From: a virus
Direction: 5' to 3' (one strand)
Virus record (IMG/VR): IMGVR_UViG_3300025696_000001
Coordinates: 1 to 64,000 of that record
DNA: 64,000 bases
Position 1 is the stretch's first letter. The number at the start of each line of letters is the position of its first letter. Under the pieces are notes generated by a model, which was not told where the DNA came from, did no database searches, and worked only from the letters and a program-made list of their open reading frames with translations. Positions 2,943-57,855 of the stretch are shown here, in pieces. The position numbers were made by a program, and so were the translations under genes.

Positions 2943-3864
2943 AAAAATTAAACAATTTTTACGAGATAAGCCTGGATATCTTAAAAAGTCAGGAGTAGTA
3001 TTAGCTGAAAGGTTATTTGATAACCCTACTGACGAAGAAGTAGTAAATTGTTACAATGCATTAGCTGAAGTTAAACTACAGCTTAAAGAGGCTGAAATGA
3101 AGCCACAAGAACAAGGAGGTAAAGTATTAATTTACGATATAGAAACCAGTCCTAACATTGGATGGTTTTGGAGAGCTGGTTATAAGCTTAATATCTCACC
3201 AGAAAATATAACTAAAGAAAGAGCAATTATATGTGTGTCTTATAAATGGTTAGGTGAAGATGAAGTATATAGTCTTAGATGGGATAATGATCAATGTGAT
3301 AAATTTCTTATTGAACAGTTTGTAGAGGTAATGAATGAAGCTGATCTTATGGTAGCTCACAACGGTGATAGATTTGATCTTAAATGGATTAAGACTAGAG
3401 CATTATTTCATAGTATTACCAGTATGTTAATTGATTATAAATCACTTGATACACTTAAACTAGCTAAAAAGAAATTTAACTTCAACAGTAATAGACTTGA
3501 TTATATAGCTAAATACCTTGGATTTGAAGGTAAGATTAAAACTACAATAGGTCTTTGGACTGATATAGTCTTTAAAAAAGATGAACAGGCTCTTAAGGAA
3601 ATGATTGAATACTGTGAAGAAGATGTTAGACAACTTGAAAAAGTATATTGTAAGCTTGTTGGATGGGAGAAACCTAAGTTCCATGCAGGTGTATTGGAAG
3701 GAAAGGAGAGATTTAGTTCACCAATTAGCGGAGGCTATAACCTAAAGAAAATTAAAGAAACTGTAACTACAGCAGGAACAGTTAAACATATAATGAAAGA
3801 TCTAGATACAGATAGAATGTTTGAAATGAATGATTCAAACTATCGTAAATATTTAGACAGATAA
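2932..3864 (+). CDS. DEDD-type 3'-5' exonuclease (DnaQ / PolB-exo-like)
   Basis: ExoI LIYDIETS, ExoII AHNGDRFDL, ExoIII YCEEDVRQL. Confidence 0.7.
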   Translation: MEIKKIKQFLRDKPGYLKKSGVVLAERLFDNPTDEEVVNCYNALAEVKLQLKEAEMKPQEQGGKVLIYDIETSPNIGWFWRAGYKLNISPENITKERAIICVSYKWLGEDEVYSLRWDNDQCDKFLIEQFVEVMNEADLMVAHNGDRFDLKWIKTRALFHSITSMLIDYKSLDTLKLAKKKFNFNSNRLDYIAKYLGFEGKIKTTIGLWTDIVFKKDEQALKEMIEYCEEDVRQLEKVYCKLVGWEKPKFHAGVLEGKERFSSPISGGYNLKKIKETVTTAGTVKHIMKDLDTDRMFEMNDSNYRKYLDR

Positions 3865-23900: not shown

Positions 23901-26900
23901 ACGATGCTACTTTTAATATGGTTGTAGTTGAAAATCAAATAGTAGGTTCCAATTTTTATAATGAGCTTAAGGATTCATTAAAGTTAACAAATAGTGATAT
24001 AACAGAAGAAGAAATAAATGACATAATAGGAGCCTATGAAAATGGTATCAACCAAACAGATGCTCAAGCTTGGATAACACCAAATAGATGGAAGTTTATA
24101 TTGGAAAGAACAGGTAAATGGTCAAAAGCCCATGATGTAGTATATGATAAAATGCTTGAAAAGAATACAGAACCTTTTACTGCAAAGGAACTTAAGCTTT
24201 CAGCACAACCTCTTAAGGGTGTTTATTTTGGTGTAGTTCAGGGAGTACCTACTTATATGAAATATTCTCAAGCCGTATTATCACCAATGCTTGTAAAAGG
24301 ATCCAAACTTCAGACTCTTTATGATGCTATGGAAAAGCAGAATATAGATGAAGCTGTAACATTGGATGGAGTTAAGGTTGGAGCTAAAGTACCTACAAAT
24401 ATATCAAGAGATAATATAGACTTTAATATTCAACGTTTAAATAACTCTGAATGGAAACTTCAACAGGATCTTCCTGTTAAGTTAATGAAGCAAACACTTT
24501 TGGGTAGTCAAATACAGAAAAACATATATTCTACCATTCAATTGGATGAACAGTATGATATAGAAGGTACAACCATGACTGGTTCAGAAATGATATTACA
24601 TATTAACGATATCATTTCTACAATGTCTAATAAAGCTATTGATAACCTTAGTGTAACTCTGGGTATGGATAACAATGGTAAAATAGATAAAGATCAGTTA
24701 TATAAGATAGCAGAGGATGAAATAAATGATAACCCAGACCAATATACAAATAATGTAAAAGATGCTATTAGAAAGCAGATTCCATTTGAGGCTATACCAG
24801 GTCTTAAGGATAAAATCTACTCTATTGTATTTTCAAAAATAAGAAAGTCTGCAAGTAACATAAAAACCAATGGTGGATCATTTATACAAATGTCCAATTA
24901 TGGTCTTGATCAGGTAACTGCAGATGAAGCTGGTGTTACATGGTTAGTAGAACCTAATGAACTTAGACCACCTACTTTATATCAAGATAAGGATGGTAAT
25001 ATAAAACAACGTCCTGGTCAGATATTTATATCTCACTCTGACATTGCTAAAGCTATTCCTAACTATAGAGAATTAGCTAAAAAAGGTAAACTTAAAAGTA
25101 TGTTAGACAATGACATACTTAAAGCTATTGGATACCGTATACCAAACCAAGGGATGAGTTCTAATGACGCTTTGGATATAGTTGGTATATTACCTCCATA
25201 TATGAATGATACTATTGTAGCATACACTGAAATCACTACTAAGACAGGTTCTGACTTTGATATTGATAAGATGTATGTAATGTTACCTGAAATAAAGACA
25301 TTATACAACAAAAGAACATATGGACAAGCTAAAAAATATTTAAATAGTATATTAAGAAATGATGATGTAGATTTAAATAACGTAGATTCATTAAATGAAT
25401 TTTATGAAGATTTACTTGAACAAACAGGTATTGAGTTAAATACTGAAGAACTTACAAAATTATTATTATCATCTGATGAATATTTGGTGTCAGATAACTA
25501 TTTTCAAATTATAGTAGATAATATAGTTAAAGGTGATTCTATATTATCAGAAAAGTTTGAAGAACAGTATGAAATAGGTGAAATTAATAAAATAGTAAAA
25601 ACAAAATCCAACAAAGATTCAAAAGCAGGTATGAACAATATGCTCTTTGATGCTTATTGGTCTATACTTACTAATAAATCTACTTACACAGATTTAATTA
25701 AGCCAATTGATTTTGATTATTTACAAAATCATATTAAGTCACTTAATGAAACTCAGGATCTAAATGAAAACTTTAAATTTTATGATGGTCTTTATCAGTT
25801 ACAATTAAAGAATACATATACATTGGGTAAATCAGGTGTTGGTATATCAGCTAATCATGCTGTTGATCATAATATATCCAAAAATGGTGTAAATCTTACT
25901 TTTAATGGCTATTATTTAGGTGTAGGTTTTGAAAATAGTATGGGTGAAACTGTGTTTGATAGAAATCCAAGTACAATGTCGTCTAATTCTGTTGAATTAA
26001 CAACTGAAGAAGCTAAAGAAGCTGCAGAAAGAATCAATAAAGGTAGAAAACAAGAAGATAAAGTAAACTACAAGACTTTAAAATCATTTAAAATTGGAGA
26101 TACCATATCTGCATTTATGAATGCTTTTGTTGATAATGCAAAAGATCCTTATATAGAAAAAGGTAATTATGATACATATACTTCAGCAGTTGCATTTATG
26201 CTTACTAGAGCTGGTGTTCATCCATATTGGACTGATGCTTTTATTGGTCAACCTATATTAAAAGAACTTACTGCTTATATTAAAGATTATGAATCTCAAT
26301 CTATAGAAAAGAATCCAGCGTTTAAAGGAATGTCTGGTTTTGATATTATATTGGCTAGAGAAGTATCAGAACTAATCAATAACAAAAGTAAGTCAGCTAT
26401 AAACAAAAAATTAGCTGATATTAAAAAGCGTAAATTAGAAGTTTATACATACAGTGATCTTATTAATACTTATGATAATGATAGTAGTAATGAAAAGAAT
26501 ATTCAAATACTTCTTAAATTTAAAGAATTTCAAGATCAGGCTAAAAAATTAGATGCATCTGTTAATCTTTCTAGATTTGATACATTAGGCTCAGGTAGAA
26601 ATTTTGTAGATATGTTGGTATATAGAAATAATCTTCTTAATATACTTAACAAACAAAGTGAAAAAAATGAAATTAGAAACCACTATAACAAGTATATAAA
26701 AAATGGTGTATATACATCACTTGGTACACAGCTTAATAATTCTGTAATTTATGCAAATGATCTATTGGAAGATAACTCACAGATATTTTTAAGTGCTAAT
26801 AGTTCTTTTTTAAATGTTATCAACAACATATCGATGAATACAGCATCATCTTATGGTGGTTCTATGGGTAGATCTACCAATAAAGATATGATAGGTAAGA

Positions 26901-38244: not shown

Positions 38245-39891
38245 TTAACTTTCGCATGCTACACATGTATTAATATCTCTTGCAAAACTTTGTGCTGCAC
38301 TTTGACTAAATTGATAATAAAGTGTTTTAACACCTTCTTCCCAAGCATATATGTAGAGCTTATTAACCTCTTTTGCTGAAACAGAAGGATGTATCATCAA
38401 GTTGAGTGACTGACTTTGATCAATGTGTTTTTGTCTTTGTGCTGCTTGTAATACAAGTTCTTTTGGTGATATTTCTATAAATGATTTAAATACTTCTTTA
38501 GTAGGAAAATCTAAGTGTTGTACACTTCCATCATTATCAAGAATGCTTTTCCAAACCTCTGGTGTATCAAGATTGTACTGCTCAAGTTGCTGCCTAAGCA
38601 TTTCATTCTTATATACTGATTTGACTTTAGCAAGATCTTTAATAAAATAATTGGACTTTATTGGTTCGATACCCATACTTACTTGTCCAAGTATATAACT
38701 ACTTGATTTTGTTGGTGCAATAGCCATTACCGTTGTATTGGCATATCCTTCTCGAATAGATTTCATTTCTAGAAAATCATGACACCATTTACTAGCTGCT
38801 TGAGCTTTTTCATTTATAGTTTTAAAAATTATACTATTCCAATATTTAGCCTTCAGACTATCTACTTCTAACAATTCACTTTGTAAAAAAGAATGCCACC
38901 CTAACACACCAAGACCTATAGCCCTGTGGTCCTTTGCAAATCTCCACGCTCTCTTCATACCAGGAAGGTGCTCAGACTTTTTAATAAAGTCTTCTATCAC
39001 GGCGTTAAGGAATTGTATGTAAACTTCTACAGCATCAGTATTCGCAATCTCTTTCCAGTGAAGTAGATTGATACTACCCAAACAACAGACAAAGCTGTTA
39101 TAAGTGTCCTGTGGTAGCTGTATTTCTGAACAAAGGTTGCTAGCTTTAATATCTAGACCAAGCTCTTTGTACGGACTGTTGTTATTGGAATTATCCTTAA
39201 ACATTATATAAGGGAAACCAAAATCTTTACGTTTCTGTATGATTTTAGCCCAAATCTTTCTCTTTCCAGAGTCTCCATCTTTCATGGCATTCATCCACGC
39301 ATCCGTGACTGTGACGCCAAATTGAAGATTTTGAATGGGATTGCCCTCGTCCCCAATTTTAAGGAATTCCATTATATCTGGGTGTTCAACGGGTAAATAG
39401 AGAGCACATGCCCCTCTTCTGGATTCACCCTGCTTACATCTATCGATAATGGTATCGTAGATTTTAGCGTAATGAACAGGACCGTCTGCATAGCCACCTC
39501 CTGATATTACTGAACCTCTTTTTCTTATATTGCCTAAATACATGGATGTACCACCTCCATATTTAGACATCATTCCTATTTCTCTTGCTCCATTTAGGAT
39601 ACTATCCATTGTGTCATCTACATCAGAACCATAACAACTAATAGGCAAAGCCTTTTCATATCCAAAATTACACCATACGGGAGTTGATAGACTATAATAG
39701 CCCAGTGCCATGTAGTTTTCAAACTTTTCAGCTCATCCTTTTATCCCTAAAATCTTTTCTGCGTAATTTCCTATGTCTTTAATCCTCTGTTCTGCTGTGA
39801 TACCGTTTTTAAGATATCCTCTATTTAGGAACTTTCTTGACTCGTCATTAAGCCAATAGTACTTCTCTCTTTTCTTTTTCTCTATTTCCAT
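38245..39891 (-). CDS. nrdA: Ribonucleotide reductase class I large subunit (548 aa), one in-frame TGA
   Basis: NLCSEI active-site Cys, APTKSSSYILG, C-terminal CVAC pair. The N-terminal 60 codons (MEIEKKKREKYYWLNDESRKFL..GIKG[TGA]AEKFENY) join in frame through the TGA at 39733-35. Confidence 0.85.
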
Positions 39892-55478: not shown

Positions 55479-55838
55479 TTATTTATTATAAGCCAACATT
55501 TCTGCTGGAATTCTTGGATATGATTTATAATTTGATAAATTAAAATCTTTTATTCTAAAACAATCCAATAAAGAATCCAAGCTATTATCTTTTGAAGATA
55601 TTGCTGGTTTATTTCCTTTATTATAATTATCTATAAGACTAGGTATATGATCCATAATCGATAAATCACATTTACCATACTTATCAACATCCCTACTTAA
55701 TTGCTCTTTAACGGCATTAAGATGAGGCTCATAGATATGGACGTTGCTAAAATCACCTATAATACCTTTTGGGACCATGTTAGTCATCTTACCTATGATC
55801 TGTGCTAAAAGTGCATAAGAAGCAATGTTAAAGGGTAA
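55479..55838 (-). CDS. thyA: Thymidylate synthase, exon 2
   Basis: Begins LPFNIASYALLAQ, which is the ThyA core continuing from ..FLG. The Met in the track ORF is the last intron codon (AUG ending in omega-G). Confidence 0.85.
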   Translation of the reverse strand, partial: LPFNIASYALLAQIIGKMTNMVPKGIIGDFSNVHIYEPHLNAVKEQLSRDVDKYGKCDLSIMDHIPSLIDNYNKGNKPAISSKDNSLDSLLDCFRIKDFNLSNYKSYPRIPAEMLAYNK

Positions 55839-55875
55839 CATTTTATTCCATAAAGTGCGTAACTACTTTATGCGT

Positions 55876-56142
55876 TTAATTAATTTTAATAACTTTATTA
55901 CAATACACACATAAAGTATGTACATATATTTCTCTATTAGGTCTATTATTTATTTTTTCACAATGTTCAATATGTTTTTTCAAACTATCAGAACATTTCA
56001 TAATATCTGTACTTTTTATAAACAATGTTTTGCCATTTTTAGTATAACTAATTTTAGCTAATACTTGTTGTGATATTTTGTGATTAAAAAATATAATATC
56101 TCCTATATTTAAATTGTTATTGTTAAAATCTTTTATTTTCAT
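55876..56142 (-). CDS. Second intron ORF (88 aa) in the P9 region, unknown function
   Basis: Lies between the P9 hairpin and the terminal hairpin 55849-55872. Cys/His pattern C-x10-H-C ... C-x2-C. Confidence 0.45.
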   Translation of the reverse strand: MKIKDFNNNNLNIGDIIFFNHKISQQVLAKISYTKNGKTLFIKSTDIMKCSDSLKKHIEHCEKINNRPNREIYVHTLCVYCNKVIKIN

Positions 56143-56265
56143 AATATTTATTAATTAAACTGCTGCATATTACTATGCAGATTAGACTATATCTTCACTC
56201 ATTTCTGAGGTCTACCGTTTCCACTCACTTGAATGTACGTTCACAATGAACTAGTCGTTGCGCAT

Positions 56266-56976
56266 TTATTTATATTTATATTTATTAAATTTAACATTTT
56301 TACTATTTATCCTATAATAAATAGTTGATGATGGTATTTTTAATTGTCTAGAAGCTTCATTTAAAGATTTATACTCTATATTATTTATAATAATAGGTTT
56401 TTCTTGACCATTATTACATTTACCTAGATGAGCTATTCTTAATTTTTCTTTAGTTTCTATACTGTGTTTTTTACCATAAAAAGAATTATTTCTACCTTTT
56501 CTATTTGTACATTTAATACAGGCTTTAGAGCTACTATTAATTCTTGTACCACATTTACAATAAGTTAATCCACCTTTCCAATTAGGGTTGTTACTTCCTA
56601 TGTAAGATTTAGTTCTTTTAGGTGCTTTTAATAAAGCTTCAGTAGTTTTTTTTATAATCTCAGCTCTATTAGGATGATTAAATATTAAATCACCACCTGT
56701 AGCCATTTTTGAAATATTATAAGTATCCTTAAAATCAATAACATTATCAAATAGATATTGTTCTCTCTCAAGATAATTATAACAAGTTTCAATAATTATA
56801 AATTCAAAATTGTCTTCTGAATATTTATTAAAAGCTCTTTGTAAATGAATAGAATGATGTTTATTCTTTCTTAATTCATTAAAATGTTTTAATTTTCTAA
56901 CATGGCAGTTTTTACTACTACCAATATAGAATTTCCCGTTAATTCTATTACGAATTATATAAATGTATCCTTTCAT
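56266..56976 (-). CDS. Intron-encoded GIY-YIG homing endonuclease
   Basis: GYIYIIRNRINGKFYIGSS (GIY-YIG). NUMOD3-like GKKHSIETKEKLRIAHLGK. C-terminal HTH-like YKSLNEASRQLKIPSSTIYYR. Sits where T4-type introns carry their ORF (P6 loop). Confidence 0.8.
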   Translation of the reverse strand: MKGYIYIIRNRINGKFYIGSSKNCHVRKLKHFNELRKNKHHSIHLQRAFNKYSEDNFEFIIIETCYNYLEREQYLFDNVIDFKDTYNISKMATGGDLIFNHPNRAEIIKKTTEALLKAPKRTKSYIGSNNPNWKGGLTYCKCGTRINSSSKACIKCTNRKGRNNSFYGKKHSIETKEKLRIAHLGKCNNGQEKPIIINNIEYKSLNEASRQLKIPSSTIYYRINSKNVKFNKYKYK

Positions 56977-57129
56977 AGATACAAATATACAACAGATTAA
57001 ATGGAATACCAAATAATATGTCAACTAATTTATAATAAATTTAATTATAAAATTTAGCACAGGATTATCCCCAGCTTAATCTGGTAGGACTTTCCCTGTT
57101 TAGATAGATTTAACCTCAGCTTACATTTT

Positions 57130-57855
57130 ACCGAGGAAAGTGTCCACACTATGTTGATGCCATTTTAAAGTGAATTTATATCTAGATATATTCTTGTTAG
57201 GATTAGGATTTTTAAAGTCCATATCACTAACAGATTTACCTTCCCATAATTTCATTATTAATTCTGTTCTAGATAATGGCTCAACTAATATCTCAAAACT
57301 CCAATGACAAGGTGTTAATGCACATTGATCTTTTTCTGCTGGATTCCAAAAAGTTACTGTTTTCTTAGTAGCCATTGGATTACTTTTAAGAGTATTAATA
57401 AGTTCTGAAAATTGGTCTAATGTAGGTGATATACCATCTGATTTTCCTTCATCTGACCAACTTCTCAATTGAGCACCATATCCTCTACCTATATTTCCTA
57501 TTTCTGGAAAATGTTTTAGTTTTGATATATAATTTTCTACTCTCATTGTAGGTTTATTATTTTGTTTTTTATACCAATAATTAAAAGCATCTTTACTCCA
57601 AATGTTAATATCATTATCTACAAGATATTTAATATTTTGTTCCCCTCTTAAAATCCATAACAACTCTCCTACAACACCTTTCCAATATAACTGTTTAGTA
57701 GTTATTGCGGGAAAACCATCATTAAAATTGTGTACAATCTTATAATCTGGTATTTGAAGCCTATATACACCTTTACGATTTGGGTCTTCATATCTAAATC
57801 CATCATCTAGGATGTGTTGTAGTAATTTGTGATATTTTTTATCTATAAAAGCCAT
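57130..57855 (-). CDS. thyA: Thymidylate synthase, exon 1
   Basis: FPAITTKQLYWKGVVGELLWILRG, TFWNPAE, ALTPCHWSFE (catalytic Cys), ends ..WHQHSVDTFLG. Confidence 0.85.

What the first reader, a model, noticed from the sequence alone, without database searches (positions are those of the whole stretch)
55839..57129. thyA is interrupted by a T4 td-type group I intron at the td insertion site
Exon 1 ends ..WHQHSVDTFLG (57130) and exon 2 starts LPFNIASYALL (55838). Together they restore the invariant ThyA core FLG|LPFNIASY. From memory, T4 td is split at the same Gly|Leu junction (its exon 2 starts CUACCGUUUAAUAUUGCG).
RNA evidence seen directly:
- The exon ends in U, and CCUCGGU pairs with the guide GCUGAGG (57120->57114). 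This gives P1 with a U.G at the splice site.
- GUAA immediately 5' of the guide pairs with the exon-2 start UUAC (P10).
- The core string AAUCUAUCUAAACAGGGAAAGUCC..AAUCCUGUGCUAAAUU is present.
- The 3' core has P7 GACUA / UAGUC, two inserted hairpins (P7.1 and P7.2, an IA hallmark), P3' GGUAGA pairing with UCUAUC, P8 CUCA-GAAA-UGAG, and J8/7 AAGAUAUAGUC.
- There is a P9 hairpin with a GUAA loop, and the intron ends in G.
- A GIY-YIG endonuclease occupies the P6 loop.
Basis: partly seen in the sequence, partly recalled or inferred. Interest (0 to 1): 0.7.

Follow-up and report, generated by a model that had tools for sequence, protein, structure and literature searches.

The report
td-type self-splicing intron in phage thyA
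The thymidylate synthase gene of this crAss-like phage is split, at the same codon junction as in coliphage T4, by a self-splicing group I intron that carries a T4-like homing endonuclease plus an unexpected second small gene; it is a new example of a well-known kind of mobile element.

Summary
Confirmed. thyA (minus strand) is split into exon 1 (57855-57130) and exon 2 (55838-55479) by a 1291-nt insert (57129-55839). The joined exons give a 361-aa ThyA colinear with the uninterrupted ThyA of Cellulophaga phage phi14:2.

The insert is a subgroup IA2 group I intron homologous to T4 td. It sits at the same Gly|Leu junction and phase. P1 keeps U.G at the 5' splice site, with a guide that has compensated for synonymous exon changes. 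P3-P9 are supported by covariation, and the intron ends in G.

Rfam RF00028 finds nothing here, but it also misses T4 td itself, so that is a blind spot for ORF-bearing introns. Two covariance models built without this sequence each hit the window once (E 3.5e-21 and 7.4e-11), flanking the endonuclease ORF. That ORF is a full-length I-TevI homologue (39% identity).

P2 is absent. An 88-aa second ORF sits in the P9.1 loop; it belongs to a family of otherwise free-standing small phage genes. The 3' module carrying it is shared at 91% identity with a different intron in another gene.

Verdict: new member of a known kind. Splicing and homing are inferred, not shown.

The parts
57130..57855 (-). 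thyA exon 1 (242 codons used; ends GGT = Gly). The reading frame runs 3 codons into the intron (K M stop).
   Evidence: PF00303 profile positions 1-175, E 9.6e-41. Colinear with phi14:2 ThyA.
55839..57129 (-). Group I intron, subgroup IA2, td-type, 1291 nt. First base A at 57129, last base G at 55839.
57114..57136 (-). P1: exon CCUCGGU (57136-57130) pairs with the internal guide GCUGAGG (57120-57114), giving U.G at the splice site. The 9-nt loop includes GUAA (57124-57121), which can form P10 with exon-2 UUAC (55838-55835).
   Evidence: Read directly and recovered in the centroid fold. Compared with T4 (CUUGGGU/GCCUGAG), two pairs changed on both sides.
57046..57113 (-). 5' core. J1/3 UUAAA follows the guide directly, so there is no P2. 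P3 5' UCUAUC 57108-57103. P4 ACAGGG 57099-57094 with UCCUGU 57064-57059. P5 GUCC/GGAU. P5a CCAG/CUGG. P6 5' GC 57058-57057. P6a 5' UUUAUA 57051-57046.
   Evidence: Model R2 hit 57117-57046, 45.7 bits, E 7.4e-11. Pair counts.
56266..56976 (-). ORF1: 236-aa GIY-YIG homing endonuclease, a full-length I-TevI homologue, in the P6a loop. Its stop codon lies in the P6 internal loop.
   Evidence: Pfam GIY-YIG, I-TevI_ZnF and NUMOD3. PDB 1i3j 3.5e-15 and 1mk0 6e-11. 39% identity to T4 I-TevI over 225 residues.
56162..56274 (-). 3' core. P6a 3' UAUAAA 56274-56269. P6 3' GC 56263-56262. P7 5' GACUA 56256-56252. P7.1 56251-56239. P7.2 56235-56222. P3 3' GGUAGA 56216-56211. P8 56209-56198. J8/7. P7 3' UAGUC 56189-56185. 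P9 56180-56163 with a GUAA loop.
   Evidence: Model R1 hit 56274-56162, 98.5 bits, E 3.5e-21. blastn match to the td intron of phage HP3. Covariation.
55874..56160 (-). P9.1: an 11-bp stem, GUUUAAUUAAU (56160-56150) with AUUAAUUAAAC (55884-55874), enclosing ORF2.
   Evidence: Read directly and recovered in the fold. Relatives without ORF2 have a compact P9.1, GUUC-AUAAGA-GAAC.
55876..56142 (-). ORF2: 88 aa in the P9.1 loop. It is a member of a family of 70-95-aa phage proteins that are otherwise free-standing. No endonuclease motif was detected.
   Evidence: Homologues at 84% and 76% identity, frame kept, dN/dS 0.23-0.77. Remote family in free-standing contexts.
55839..55872 (-). P9.2 hairpin CAUAAAGU-AGUUACGC-ACUUUAUG (55872-55849), then the 3' tail GAAUAAAAUG ending in the terminal G at 55839.
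   Evidence: The first pair is C-G here and U-A in L008 and L032. T4 has the equivalent GGUAAG-AUUAACGAC-CUUAUC.
55479..55838 (-). thyA exon 2 (119 codons plus stop; starts TTA = Leu).
   Evidence: PF00303 profile positions 176-265, E 1.2e-17. Colinear with phi14:2 ThyA.

Best explanation
This is a mobile self-splicing group I intron of subgroup IA2, homologous to the T4 td intron. It sits at the same Gly|Leu junction of thyA in an uncultivated relative of Cellulophaga phage phi14:2 (Crassvirales).

Inferred mechanism:
1. thyA is transcribed through the intron.
2. The ribozyme core (P3-P8, with the P3/P7 pseudoknot and a guanosine site in P7) folds around the two looped-out ORFs.
3. An external guanosine attacks after U57130, which P1 presents as a U.G pair.
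4. The freed exon-1 3'-OH attacks after the terminal G at 55839, with exon 2 aligned by P10.
5. The joined message encodes a 361-aa ThyA.

ORF1 in the P6a loop is an I-TevI-type GIY-YIG endonuclease. It should cut intronless thyA alleles of co-infecting relatives upstream of the insertion site, so that the intron is copied in by recombinational repair.

ORF2 in the P9.1 loop is a passenger small gene that rides with the intron.

Shown here: the homology, the insertion site, the conserved and covarying structure, and intact ORFs. Inferred: catalysis, homing and expression of the ORFs.
For: The gene is split exactly:
- Pfam PF00303 covers positions 1-175 in exon 1 and 176-265 in exon 2.
- The spliced protein is colinear with the uninterrupted phi14:2 ThyA: 61% identity overall, and identical over the stretch TLKWHQHSVDTFLGLPFNIASYALLAQIIGKMTNMVPKGIIGD that spans the junction.
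- The junction and phase are the same as in T4 td.

The RNA is a td-type group I intron:
- The 3' core matches the td intron of T-even phage HP3 at 74% identity.
- Model R1 (3' half, built without the window, L009 or L011) hits the window once: 98.5 bits, E 3.5e-21.
- Model R2 (5' half) hits once: 45.7 bits, E 7.4e-11. The two hits lie on the same strand, in the right order, flanking ORF1.
- On 14 ORF-deleted introns including T4 td, 97.4% of cells are paired, against 29-45% when the partner is slid. 26 of 39 pairs show changes on both sides, and 0 of 500 shuffles reach the observed values. P3 covaries at 6/6 pairs, P7.1 at 4/4, P7.2 at 5/5, P6 at 2/2 and P4 at 4/6.
- The P1 guide differs from T4's in step with synonymous exon changes.
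- The ORF-deleted RNA folds with z = -4.7, and the centroid recovers P1, P5, P5a, P6, P7.1, P7.2, P8, P9, P9.1 and P9.2.
- RF00028 hits ORF-less relatives that share this intron's 31-nt J8/7-P9 string at 72-114 bits.

The endonuclease looks intact:
- ORF1 is colinear with I-TevI. The residues I recall as the I-TevI catalytic set (R27, H31, H40, E75, N90; numbering from memory) are identical in the alignment.

The intron is not a one-off:
- The same intron at the same site is in L009, L011, L031 and L008.
Against: - RF00028 gives no hit in the window, even at E <= 10. The control shows that it also misses T4 td.
- P2, present in T4 td and in every other relative examined, is absent. Whether that costs activity is unknown.
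- 8 of the 11 training sequences for R1, and 7 of the 10 for R2, were found through an exact 31-nt match to the window. The model hits are therefore not fully independent. T4, HP3 and RCIP0023 were not found through that 31-nt string, but they too came from similarity searches seeded with window sequence, so none of the training set is fully independent of the window.
- The window's own exon 1 has CAACA where T4 has the I-TevI cleavage motif CAACG. The critical G is missing (motif requirement from PMC5009752).
- There are no RNA data.
Confidence: 0.9

Rival explanations
1. The intron is a decaying relic. It is homologous to td but no longer splices well, because P2 is lost and 267 nt are inserted in P9.1. 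thyA would then be a pseudogene, or would depend on a protein cofactor.
For: P2 is absent. The ThyA position that I place, from memory, at Arg166 of E. coli ThyA is His in this allele, which could hint at relaxed constraint on the enzyme.
Against: - All core helices are intact and the P1 guide matches its exon.
- The P2-less form is kept in at least four diverged copies with intact exons: window, L009, L011 and L031.
- The intronless, cultured phage phi14:2 has the same His, so the His is not a consequence of the intron.
- The exons remain identical in protein to phi14:2 around the junction.
Confidence: 0.06
2. ThyA is made as two separately translated pieces. Exon 2 would start at the in-frame AUG formed by the last three intron bases (55841-55839), and no splicing would occur.
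For: the ORF listing shows an ATG-initiated ORF, MLPFNIASY..., from 55841.
Against: - T4 td also ends ...AUAAUG in frame with exon 2, and the AAUG end is shared across the intron family. The AUG is therefore an intron feature.
- The break falls inside the FLG|LPFN motif, which the finding itself treats as the invariant ThyA core (only 11 sequences were compared here).
- A conserved, covarying ribozyme would have no reason to persist.
Confidence: 0.02
3. ORF2 is not a passenger gene. It would be the eroded remnant of a second homing endonuclease that once occupied the P9.1 loop. From memory, I-TevII occupies that loop in the T4 nrdD intron.
For: - There is a weak NUMOD3-like match in the homologue P0003, E 0.041, below the Pfam cut-off.
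- The C-terminal part is Cys/His-rich.
- L010 carries a 245-aa ORF after P9.
Against: - The profile search finds a family of complete 70-95-aa proteins of the same length and no larger endonuclease. The two large hits, P0005 and P0013, carry Ig-like, PKD-like and, for P0013, CHU_C secretion-signal domains.
- Family members sit free-standing in packed small-gene clusters with no intron core nearby.
- The frame is kept across an in-frame 6-nt indel, and dN/dS is 0.23-0.32 in two of three comparisons.
Confidence: 0.15

Closest known systems
T4 td intron with I-TevI (subgroup IA2; record M12742)
   Same: - Same host gene, same Gly|Leu junction and same phase.
- Same core, including P7.1, P7.2, a P9 with a GNRA loop, P9.1, P9.2 and the AAUG 3' end.
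- The endonuclease ORF is in the P6a loop and runs into the P6 region.
- The endonuclease is 39% identical and colinear, with GIY-YIG, zinc finger, NUMOD3 and C-terminal DNA-binding domain.
   Different: - No P2. An extra P5a. P8 is 4 bp rather than 7.
- P9.1 is expanded into an 11-bp stem that holds an 88-aa ORF2.
- 1291 nt rather than 1016 nt.
- The host phage is a Crassvirales relative presumably infecting Bacteroidota, not a T-even coliphage.
- The exon lacks the G of the CAACG cleavage motif.
Bacillus mojavensis thyA intron with I-BmoI
   Same: It is a GIY-YIG endonuclease encoded in a thyA intron. I-BmoI binds and cleaves the site homologous to the I-TevI site (PMC5009752). This shows that thyA introns of this kind occur outside the T-even phages.
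   Different: - From memory (Edgell and Shub 2001), I-BmoI lacks the I-TevI zinc finger. The enzyme here has it (PF22635).
- I-BmoI cuts close to the insertion site (PMC3161791).
- I did not compare sequences with the B. mojavensis intron.
thyA intron of Klebsiella jumbo phage RCIP0023 (and, from memory, Bacillus phage beta22)
   Same: It is an IA2 core with an I-TevI-like ORF in P6. Its endonuclease is the closest in the phage collection to ORF1, at 41% identity.
   Different: It is inserted 21 nt upstream (QR|SADTFLG) and it has a P2.
IStrons (IA2 group I intron with an IS605-family element in its 3' end; PMC3984707, PMC4227781)
   Same: This is a precedent for an IA2 intron that carries extra protein-coding cargo in its 3' peripheral region.
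   Different: The cargo there is a transposon that supplies mobility. Here the cargo is an 88-aa protein of unknown function with no transposase, and mobility is supplied by a GIY-YIG endonuclease in P6.
Group I introns of crAss-like phages (Yutin et al. 2021, PMC7886860)
   Same: Group I introns in core genes of Crassvirales have already been reported.
   Different: They were reported for the Delta and Zeta groups from the human gut, in MCP, PolB, primase, ATP_43b and other genes, and were recognised by endonuclease domains. That paper does not list a td-site thyA intron or a phi14:2-like phage.

Membership tests
Group I intron (Rfam RF00028), subgroup IA2, td-type | P1 formed by the exon end and an internal guide, with U.G at the 5' splice site | tested here: met
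   CCUCGGU (57136-57130) pairs with GCUGAGG (57120-57114) and is recovered in the centroid fold. Two pairs are compensated relative to T4.
Group I intron (Rfam RF00028), subgroup IA2, td-type | The intron ends in G (terminal guanosine) | tested here: met
   G at 55839. The same AAUG end is found in T4 and in relatives.
Group I intron (Rfam RF00028), subgroup IA2, td-type | Conserved core P3-P8 with the P3/P7 pseudoknot, supported by covariation | tested here: met
   97.4% of cells paired, 26/39 pairs with changes on both sides, 0/500 shuffles reach the observed values, and slid controls give 29-45%. P7 is invariant, so it is uninformative. P8 was checked by eye only.
Group I intron (Rfam RF00028), subgroup IA2, td-type | P7.1 and P7.2 hairpins between P7 and P3' (the IA hallmark) | tested here: met
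   P7.1 is at 56251-56239 and P7.2 at 56235-56222. All 9 pairs covary across the family.
Group I intron (Rfam RF00028), subgroup IA2, td-type | P2 hairpin between P1 and P3 (present in T4 td and typical of IA2) | tested here: not met
   The guide is followed directly by UUAAA and then P3. L009, L011 and L031 are the same. This is a peripheral element, not part of the catalytic core.
Group I intron (Rfam RF00028), subgroup IA2, td-type | Match to the Rfam RF00028 covariance model at the gathering score | tested here: not met
   No hit in the window. The control shows that T4 td itself is also missed, while the ORF-less HP3 td intron scores 70.3 bits and ORF-less relatives with the same core score 72-114 bits. 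My own half-models hit at E 3.5e-21 and 7.4e-11.
Group I intron (Rfam RF00028), subgroup IA2, td-type | Guanosine-dependent self-splicing | not testable with these tools
   This needs RT-PCR, RNA-seq or in vitro splicing.
Group I intron (Rfam RF00028), subgroup IA2, td-type | Insertion at the td site of thymidylate synthase | tested here: met
   FLG|LPFN, between the GGT and Leu codons, in both T4 and the window.
I-TevI-type GIY-YIG homing endonuclease | N-terminal GIY-YIG domain with catalytic residues | tested here: met
   PF01541. PDB 1mk0 and 1ln0. The residues I recall as the I-TevI catalytic set (R27, H31, H40, E75, N90; numbering from memory) are identical in the alignment.
I-TevI-type GIY-YIG homing endonuclease | Linker zinc finger, NUMOD3 helix and C-terminal DNA-binding domain | tested here: met
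   PF22635 1.3e-08 and PF07460 5.6e-06. PDB 1i3j matches residues 124-226, E 3.5e-15.
I-TevI-type GIY-YIG homing endonuclease | Cleavage at a CNNNG motif 23-25 nt upstream of the insertion site in intronless alleles | tested here: inconclusive
   At -27..-23 the window, phi14:2 and L009 have CAACA (no G5). L011 and L031 have CAAAG, and L006, which is intronless at this site, has CAACG. A CATAG lies 3 nt downstream. Activity was not tested.
Thymidylate synthase ThyA (PF00303) | Full-length match to the family profile after exon joining | tested here: met
   Caveat: the position that I place, from memory, at Arg166 of E. coli ThyA is His here.

The most novel reading that the evidence does not exclude
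The P9.1 loop of this intron lineage may serve as an exchangeable cargo slot. Small genes that are not endonucleases, and that belong to families otherwise found free-standing in phage genomes, lodge there and spread with the homing intron.

- Three unrelated ORFs and one ORF-less insert occupy the same slot in sister copies of the thyA intron.
- The same ORF2 with its P9-P9.1-P9.2 module occurs at 91% identity in a different intron in another gene.

This suggests that modules are swapped by recombination through the near-invariant J8/7-P9 string. If so, phage group I introns would be vehicles for accessory genes, not only for their own endonucleases.
Probability: 0.4. Interest if true: 0.6.

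Novelty: new member of a known kind. Interest (0 to 1): 0.4.

Why it matters
- It extends the td/I-TevI intron, the textbook mobile phage intron, from T-even coliphages to a phi14:2-like Crassvirales phage. The site and the endonuclease architecture are the same, which is further evidence that this intron-endonuclease pair has crossed very distant phage lineages or has repeatedly targeted the same conserved ThyA sequence.
- For annotation, it means that thyA here is one gene and not two fragments.
- It shows that RF00028 scans miss ORF-bearing phage introns, T4 td included.
- The side observation is the part worth following up: a second, variable passenger ORF in the P9.1 loop, shared as a module between introns in different genes.

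Tried and rejected
- **Rfam on the window.** No group I hit at the gathering score or at E <= 10. I rejected this as evidence after the control on T4 td, which is also missed.
- **Function of ORF2.** Pfam, PHROGs and tblastn against phages gave nothing usable.
- **Structure of ORF2.** The AlphaFold model was too poor to search with (pLDDT 57.8), so I ran no fold search.
- **DUF7205.** It appears only as a weak or faint precomputed hit. It was not reproduced by hmmscan and is absent from the papers library.
- **Promoter for ORF1.** A Bacteroidetes-type promoter pattern (TTTG-N20-TAnnTTTG) lies upstream of ORF1 at 57013-56982. The pattern occurs 3 times in the window against 2.8 expected, so it is not evidence. 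The sigma-70 scan was not above chance either.
- **Other introns in the window.** The second-best model hits (24417-24518, E 4.9; 39322-39374, E 0.71) are treated as noise.
- **Alternative explanations.** An intein and a group II intron were considered and dropped: the exon-1 reading frame ends at a stop codon 3 codons into the insert, and the core is group I.
Full report
**Observation**

On the minus strand, an ORF from 57855 ends WHQHSVDTFLG and then runs K-M-stop into the insert. A second ORF begins at 55841 with M-LPFNIASY. Pfam PF00303 (thymidylate synthase) matches the first piece over profile positions 1-175 and the second over 176-265, which is exactly contiguous.

Joining GGT (57132-57130) to TTA (55838-55836) gives a 361-aa protein. 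It is colinear with the uninterrupted 358-aa ThyA of Cellulophaga phage phi14:2: 61% identity overall, and identical across the stretch TLKWHQHSVDTFLGLPFNIASYALLAQIIGKMTNMVPKGIIGD that spans the junction.

Gene order around thyA matches phi14:2 (DnaB-like helicase upstream, Sak4-like AAA_24 ATPase downstream). phi14:2 is classified in Crassvirales, Steigviridae. No phage in the collection is closer than 77% in DNA, and that only in exon 1. The source scaffold is about 100.6 kb.

**The site is the td site**

The T4 record M12742 reads ...GTTTTCTTGGGT|TAATTGAGGCCTGAG ... CATAATG|CTACCGTTTAATATTGCG, with a 1016-nt intron. Both genes are cut between the Gly codon of FLG and the Leu codon of LPFN.

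By contrast, the thyA intron of Klebsiella jumbo phage RCIP0023 lies 21 nt upstream (QR|SADTFLG).

**The RNA**

Rfam RF00028 finds nothing in the window, at the gathering score or at E <= 10. I ran controls:
- RF00028 hits the ORF-less td intron of T-even phage HP3 (70.3 bits).
- It misses T4 td itself, the RCIP0023 intron, and the relatives L008 and L009.
- It hits ORF-less introns that share this intron's 31-nt J8/7-P7'-P9 string: L027 113.7, L023 80.1, L024 75.2 and L010 72.0 bits.

The miss is therefore a blind spot for introns with long ORF insertions.

Positive evidence:
- blastn links intron nt 850-972 to the HP3 td intron and to unannotated gaps or endonuclease-bearing regions, consistent with introns, in Staphylococcus, Enterococcus and Bacillus phages; only the HP3 context was inspected. 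It links the 5' core to similar places in Lactococcus, Aeromonas and Staphylococcus phages.
- I built two covariance models from relatives, excluding the window and its closest copies. R1 covers J6/7 to P9 (26 pairs). R2 covers P3 to P6 (9 pairs).
- Each model hits the 64-kb window once: R1 at 56274-56162 (98.5 bits, E 3.5e-21) and R2 at 57117-57046 (45.7 bits, E 7.4e-11). The hits are on the same strand, in order, either side of ORF1.
- Caveat: most training sequences were retrieved through an exact 31-nt match to the window. T4, HP3 and RCIP0023 were not found through that 31-nt string, but they too came from similarity searches seeded with window sequence, so none of the training set is fully independent of the window.

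Covariation was counted on a MAFFT alignment of 14 ORF-deleted introns, using the structure I wrote from the window sequence (P3, P4, P5, P6, P7, P7.1, P7.2, P9):
- 97.4% of cells are paired, against 29-45% when the 3' partner is slid.
- 26 of 39 pairs have changes on both sides.
- 0 of 500 shuffles reach the observed values.
- P3 covaries at all six pairs, P7.1 at 4/4 and P7.2 at 5/5. P7 is invariant.

P1 also covaries. T4 pairs CUUGGGU with GCCUGAG, and the window pairs CCUCGGU with GCUGAGG. Two positions have changed on both sides in step with synonymous exon differences.

An ORF-deleted construct folds with z = -4.7. Its centroid recovers P1, P5, P5a, P6/P6a, P7.1, P7.2, P8, P9, P9.1 and P9.2, and the minimum-energy fold adds P3.

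**Differences from td**

- The guide is followed directly by UUAAA and then P3, so there is no P2. Sister copies L009, L011 and L031 are the same, while the five other relatives whose 5' end I read (HP3, L010, L016, L023, L027) have a P2.
- P5 is extended by a P5a.
- P8 is short.

**The endonuclease**

ORF1 most likely starts at the ATG at 56976 (MKGYIYIIRN). It has Pfam GIY-YIG, I-TevI zinc-finger and NUMOD3 matches. It matches both solved I-TevI domains: 1mk0 and 1ln0 for the catalytic domain, and 1i3j for the DNA-binding domain at 3.5e-15. It is 39% identical and colinear with T4 I-TevI, and the residues I recall as the I-TevI catalytic set are identical in the alignment. Its closest relative in the phage collection is the RCIP0023 thyA-intron enzyme, at 41% identity.

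As in T4, the ORF sits in the P6a loop and ends inside the P6 region.

According to PMC5009752, I-TevI cuts at CAACG upstream of its binding site, and C1 and G5 are critical. The equivalent position here, -27..-23, differs between alleles:
- CAACA in the window, phi14:2 and L009.
- CAAAG in L011 and L031.
- CAACG in L006.

The cleavage site of this enzyme cannot be read from sequence.

**Relatives**

A search of IMG/VR with the spliced ThyA found the following:
- L009 has the same intron at the same site (1258 nt).
- L008 has a partial copy.
- phi14:2 is intronless.
- L006 and L007 have a 427-nt insert after residue 72.

R1 hits the L006/L007 insert at 88.5 bits, so it is a second td-type intron site in thyA. 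L011 has R1 hits at both places.

**The second ORF**

It is closed by an 11-bp stem, GUUUAAUUAAU/AUUAAUUAAAC. This stem is an expanded P9.1: relatives have the compact GUUC-AUAAGA-GAAC there.

Sister copies of the thyA intron carry different contents in the same loop:
- L009 has an unrelated, very acidic 78-aa ORF.
- L008 has a third, unrelated 80-aa ORF.
- L011 has an ORF-less insert of about 100 nt.

ORF2 has homologues at 84% identity (L031, same intron) and at 76% identity (L032). In L032 it lies in the P9.1 loop of a different intron. That intron splits an AAA_24 gene and has a Cys-rich 164-aa ORF upstream, apparently in P6, which I read by eye as HNH-like (not confirmed by a profile search). 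The window and L032 share 91% identity only over intron nt 932-1291, that is J8/7 through the 3' splice site.

The reading frame survives an in-frame 6-nt indel, and dN/dS is 0.23, 0.32 and 0.77 in the three comparisons.

A profile search of 1.8 billion representative proteins finds eight proteins of 70-95 aa, plus two large proteins carrying Ig-like, PKD-like and, in one, CHU_C secretion-signal domains. The two small ones I could place sit free-standing in packed small-gene clusters with no intron core nearby.

The acidic ORF of L009 likewise has 26 homologues. Those I checked are free-standing, and R1 finds no intron core near them.

I could assign no function.

My reading is that ORF2 is a passenger gene, not an endonuclease, and that the 3' module is exchanged between introns. 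An eroded endonuclease remains possible; I put it at about 0.15.

**Comparison with what is known**

- The intron meets every core test for a td-type IA2 group I intron except P2, which is peripheral, and the RF00028 score, which the control explains.
- thyA introns with GIY-YIG enzymes are known from T4 and from Bacillus mojavensis. I-BmoI cuts the site homologous to the I-TevI site (PMC5009752).
- Group I introns are already reported in crAss-like phages, in other groups and other genes (PMC7886860).
- IA2 introns with extra cargo at the 3' end are known as IStrons (PMC3984707).

This is therefore a new member of a known kind. The variable P9.1 cargo is the only part that goes beyond that.

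**Limits**

Splicing, homing and expression of either ORF are inferred. The following statements rest on my memory, not on a tool result:
- that subgroup IA2 typically has a P2;
- that I-TevII sits in P9.1 of the T4 nrdD intron;
[quoted passage not shown] - that the His in this ThyA corresponds to Arg166 of E. coli ThyA, and that Arg166 matters for activity;
- that R27, H31, H40, E75 and N90 are the catalytic residues of I-TevI.

Noticed in passing
window 55876-56142 (-), with loci L031, L032, L033-L035: An 88-aa ORF2 sits in the P9.1 loop of the intron. It belongs to a family of 70-95-aa phage proteins that are otherwise free-standing. No endonuclease motif was found and its function is unknown. 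The window version has a Cys/His-rich C-terminal part.
   Followed up: yes
L032 1604-1970 versus window 56198-55839: The 3' module (J8/7, P7', P9, P9.1 with ORF2, P9.2, terminal G) is 91% identical to that of a different group I intron. That intron splits an AAA_24 gene and carries a Cys-rich ORF I read by eye as HNH-like. The rest of the two introns is unrelated. This suggests module exchange between introns.
   Followed up: partly
L009 4106-4342, L008 404-646, L011 (oriented) about 2160-2270: The same P9.1 slot of sister thyA introns holds three other contents: an unrelated acidic 78-aa ORF with 26 homologues (those checked are free-standing), an unrelated 80-aa ORF, and an ORF-less insert of about 100 nt. 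The insert includes a T-loop-like hairpin, GGUGGUUAGAUUCCAUCAC.
   Followed up: partly
L006 3217-3643, L007 2006-2432, L011 raw 3450-3568: There is a second td-type group I intron site in thyA of this phage clade, after ThyA residue 72. It is ORF-less, about 427 nt, and scores 88.5 bits with R1. L011 appears to have introns at both thyA sites. The window has none at this site.
   Followed up: partly
window 57153-57151 (codon CAT in WHQHSVD): The ThyA position that I place, from memory, at Arg166 of E. coli ThyA (QRS motif, dUMP phosphate binding) is His in the window, phi14:2 and L009. It is Arg in L006, L011, L031, T4 and RCIP0023. The change also removes the G5 of the I-TevI-type CNNNG cleavage motif at -27..-23. 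It could be escape from cleavage or an altered enzyme.
   Followed up: partly
L001 2939-4015 (NC_021806 g032): RefSeq names the phi14:2 gene 'flavin-dependent thymidylate synthase, ThyX', but its own note cites PF00303, the same family that both window exons match, and it is 61% identical to the window's joined ThyA. This is a ThyA, so the record appears to be misannotated.
   Followed up: no
IMG/VR loci L010-L030: The 31-nt string GATATAGTCTAATCTGCATAGTAATATGCAG (J8/7-P7'-P9) is exactly identical in 22 viral loci (L030 is the same contig as L009). The contigs range from 2.6 to 168 kb and the introns sit in different genes, while the helices around the string covary freely. Either the constraint is unusually strong or the introns recombine.
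   Followed up: partly
window 56982-57013 (-): A Bacteroidetes-type promoter pattern, TTTG-N20-TATATTTG, ends 5 nt before the ORF1 start codon. This would recall the intron-internal promoters of I-TevI in T4. The pattern is not more frequent in the window than chance (3 matches against 2.8 expected).
   Followed up: partly
window 57129-57121 and 55841-55839 (-): The exon-1 reading frame stops 3 codons into the intron (AAA AUG UAA). The last three intron bases are an AUG in frame with exon 2. T4 td has the same two features (TAA at once; ...AUAAUG).
   Followed up: no
L003 (T4 td), L004, L008, L009, L011, L031, L032: Rfam RF00028 does not detect T4 td or any other ORF-bearing intron tested, even with permissive settings for L003, L004, L008 and L009 (E <= 1; L011, L031 and L032 were scanned at gathering score only). 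Genome scans that rely on it will under-count phage introns.
   Followed up: yes
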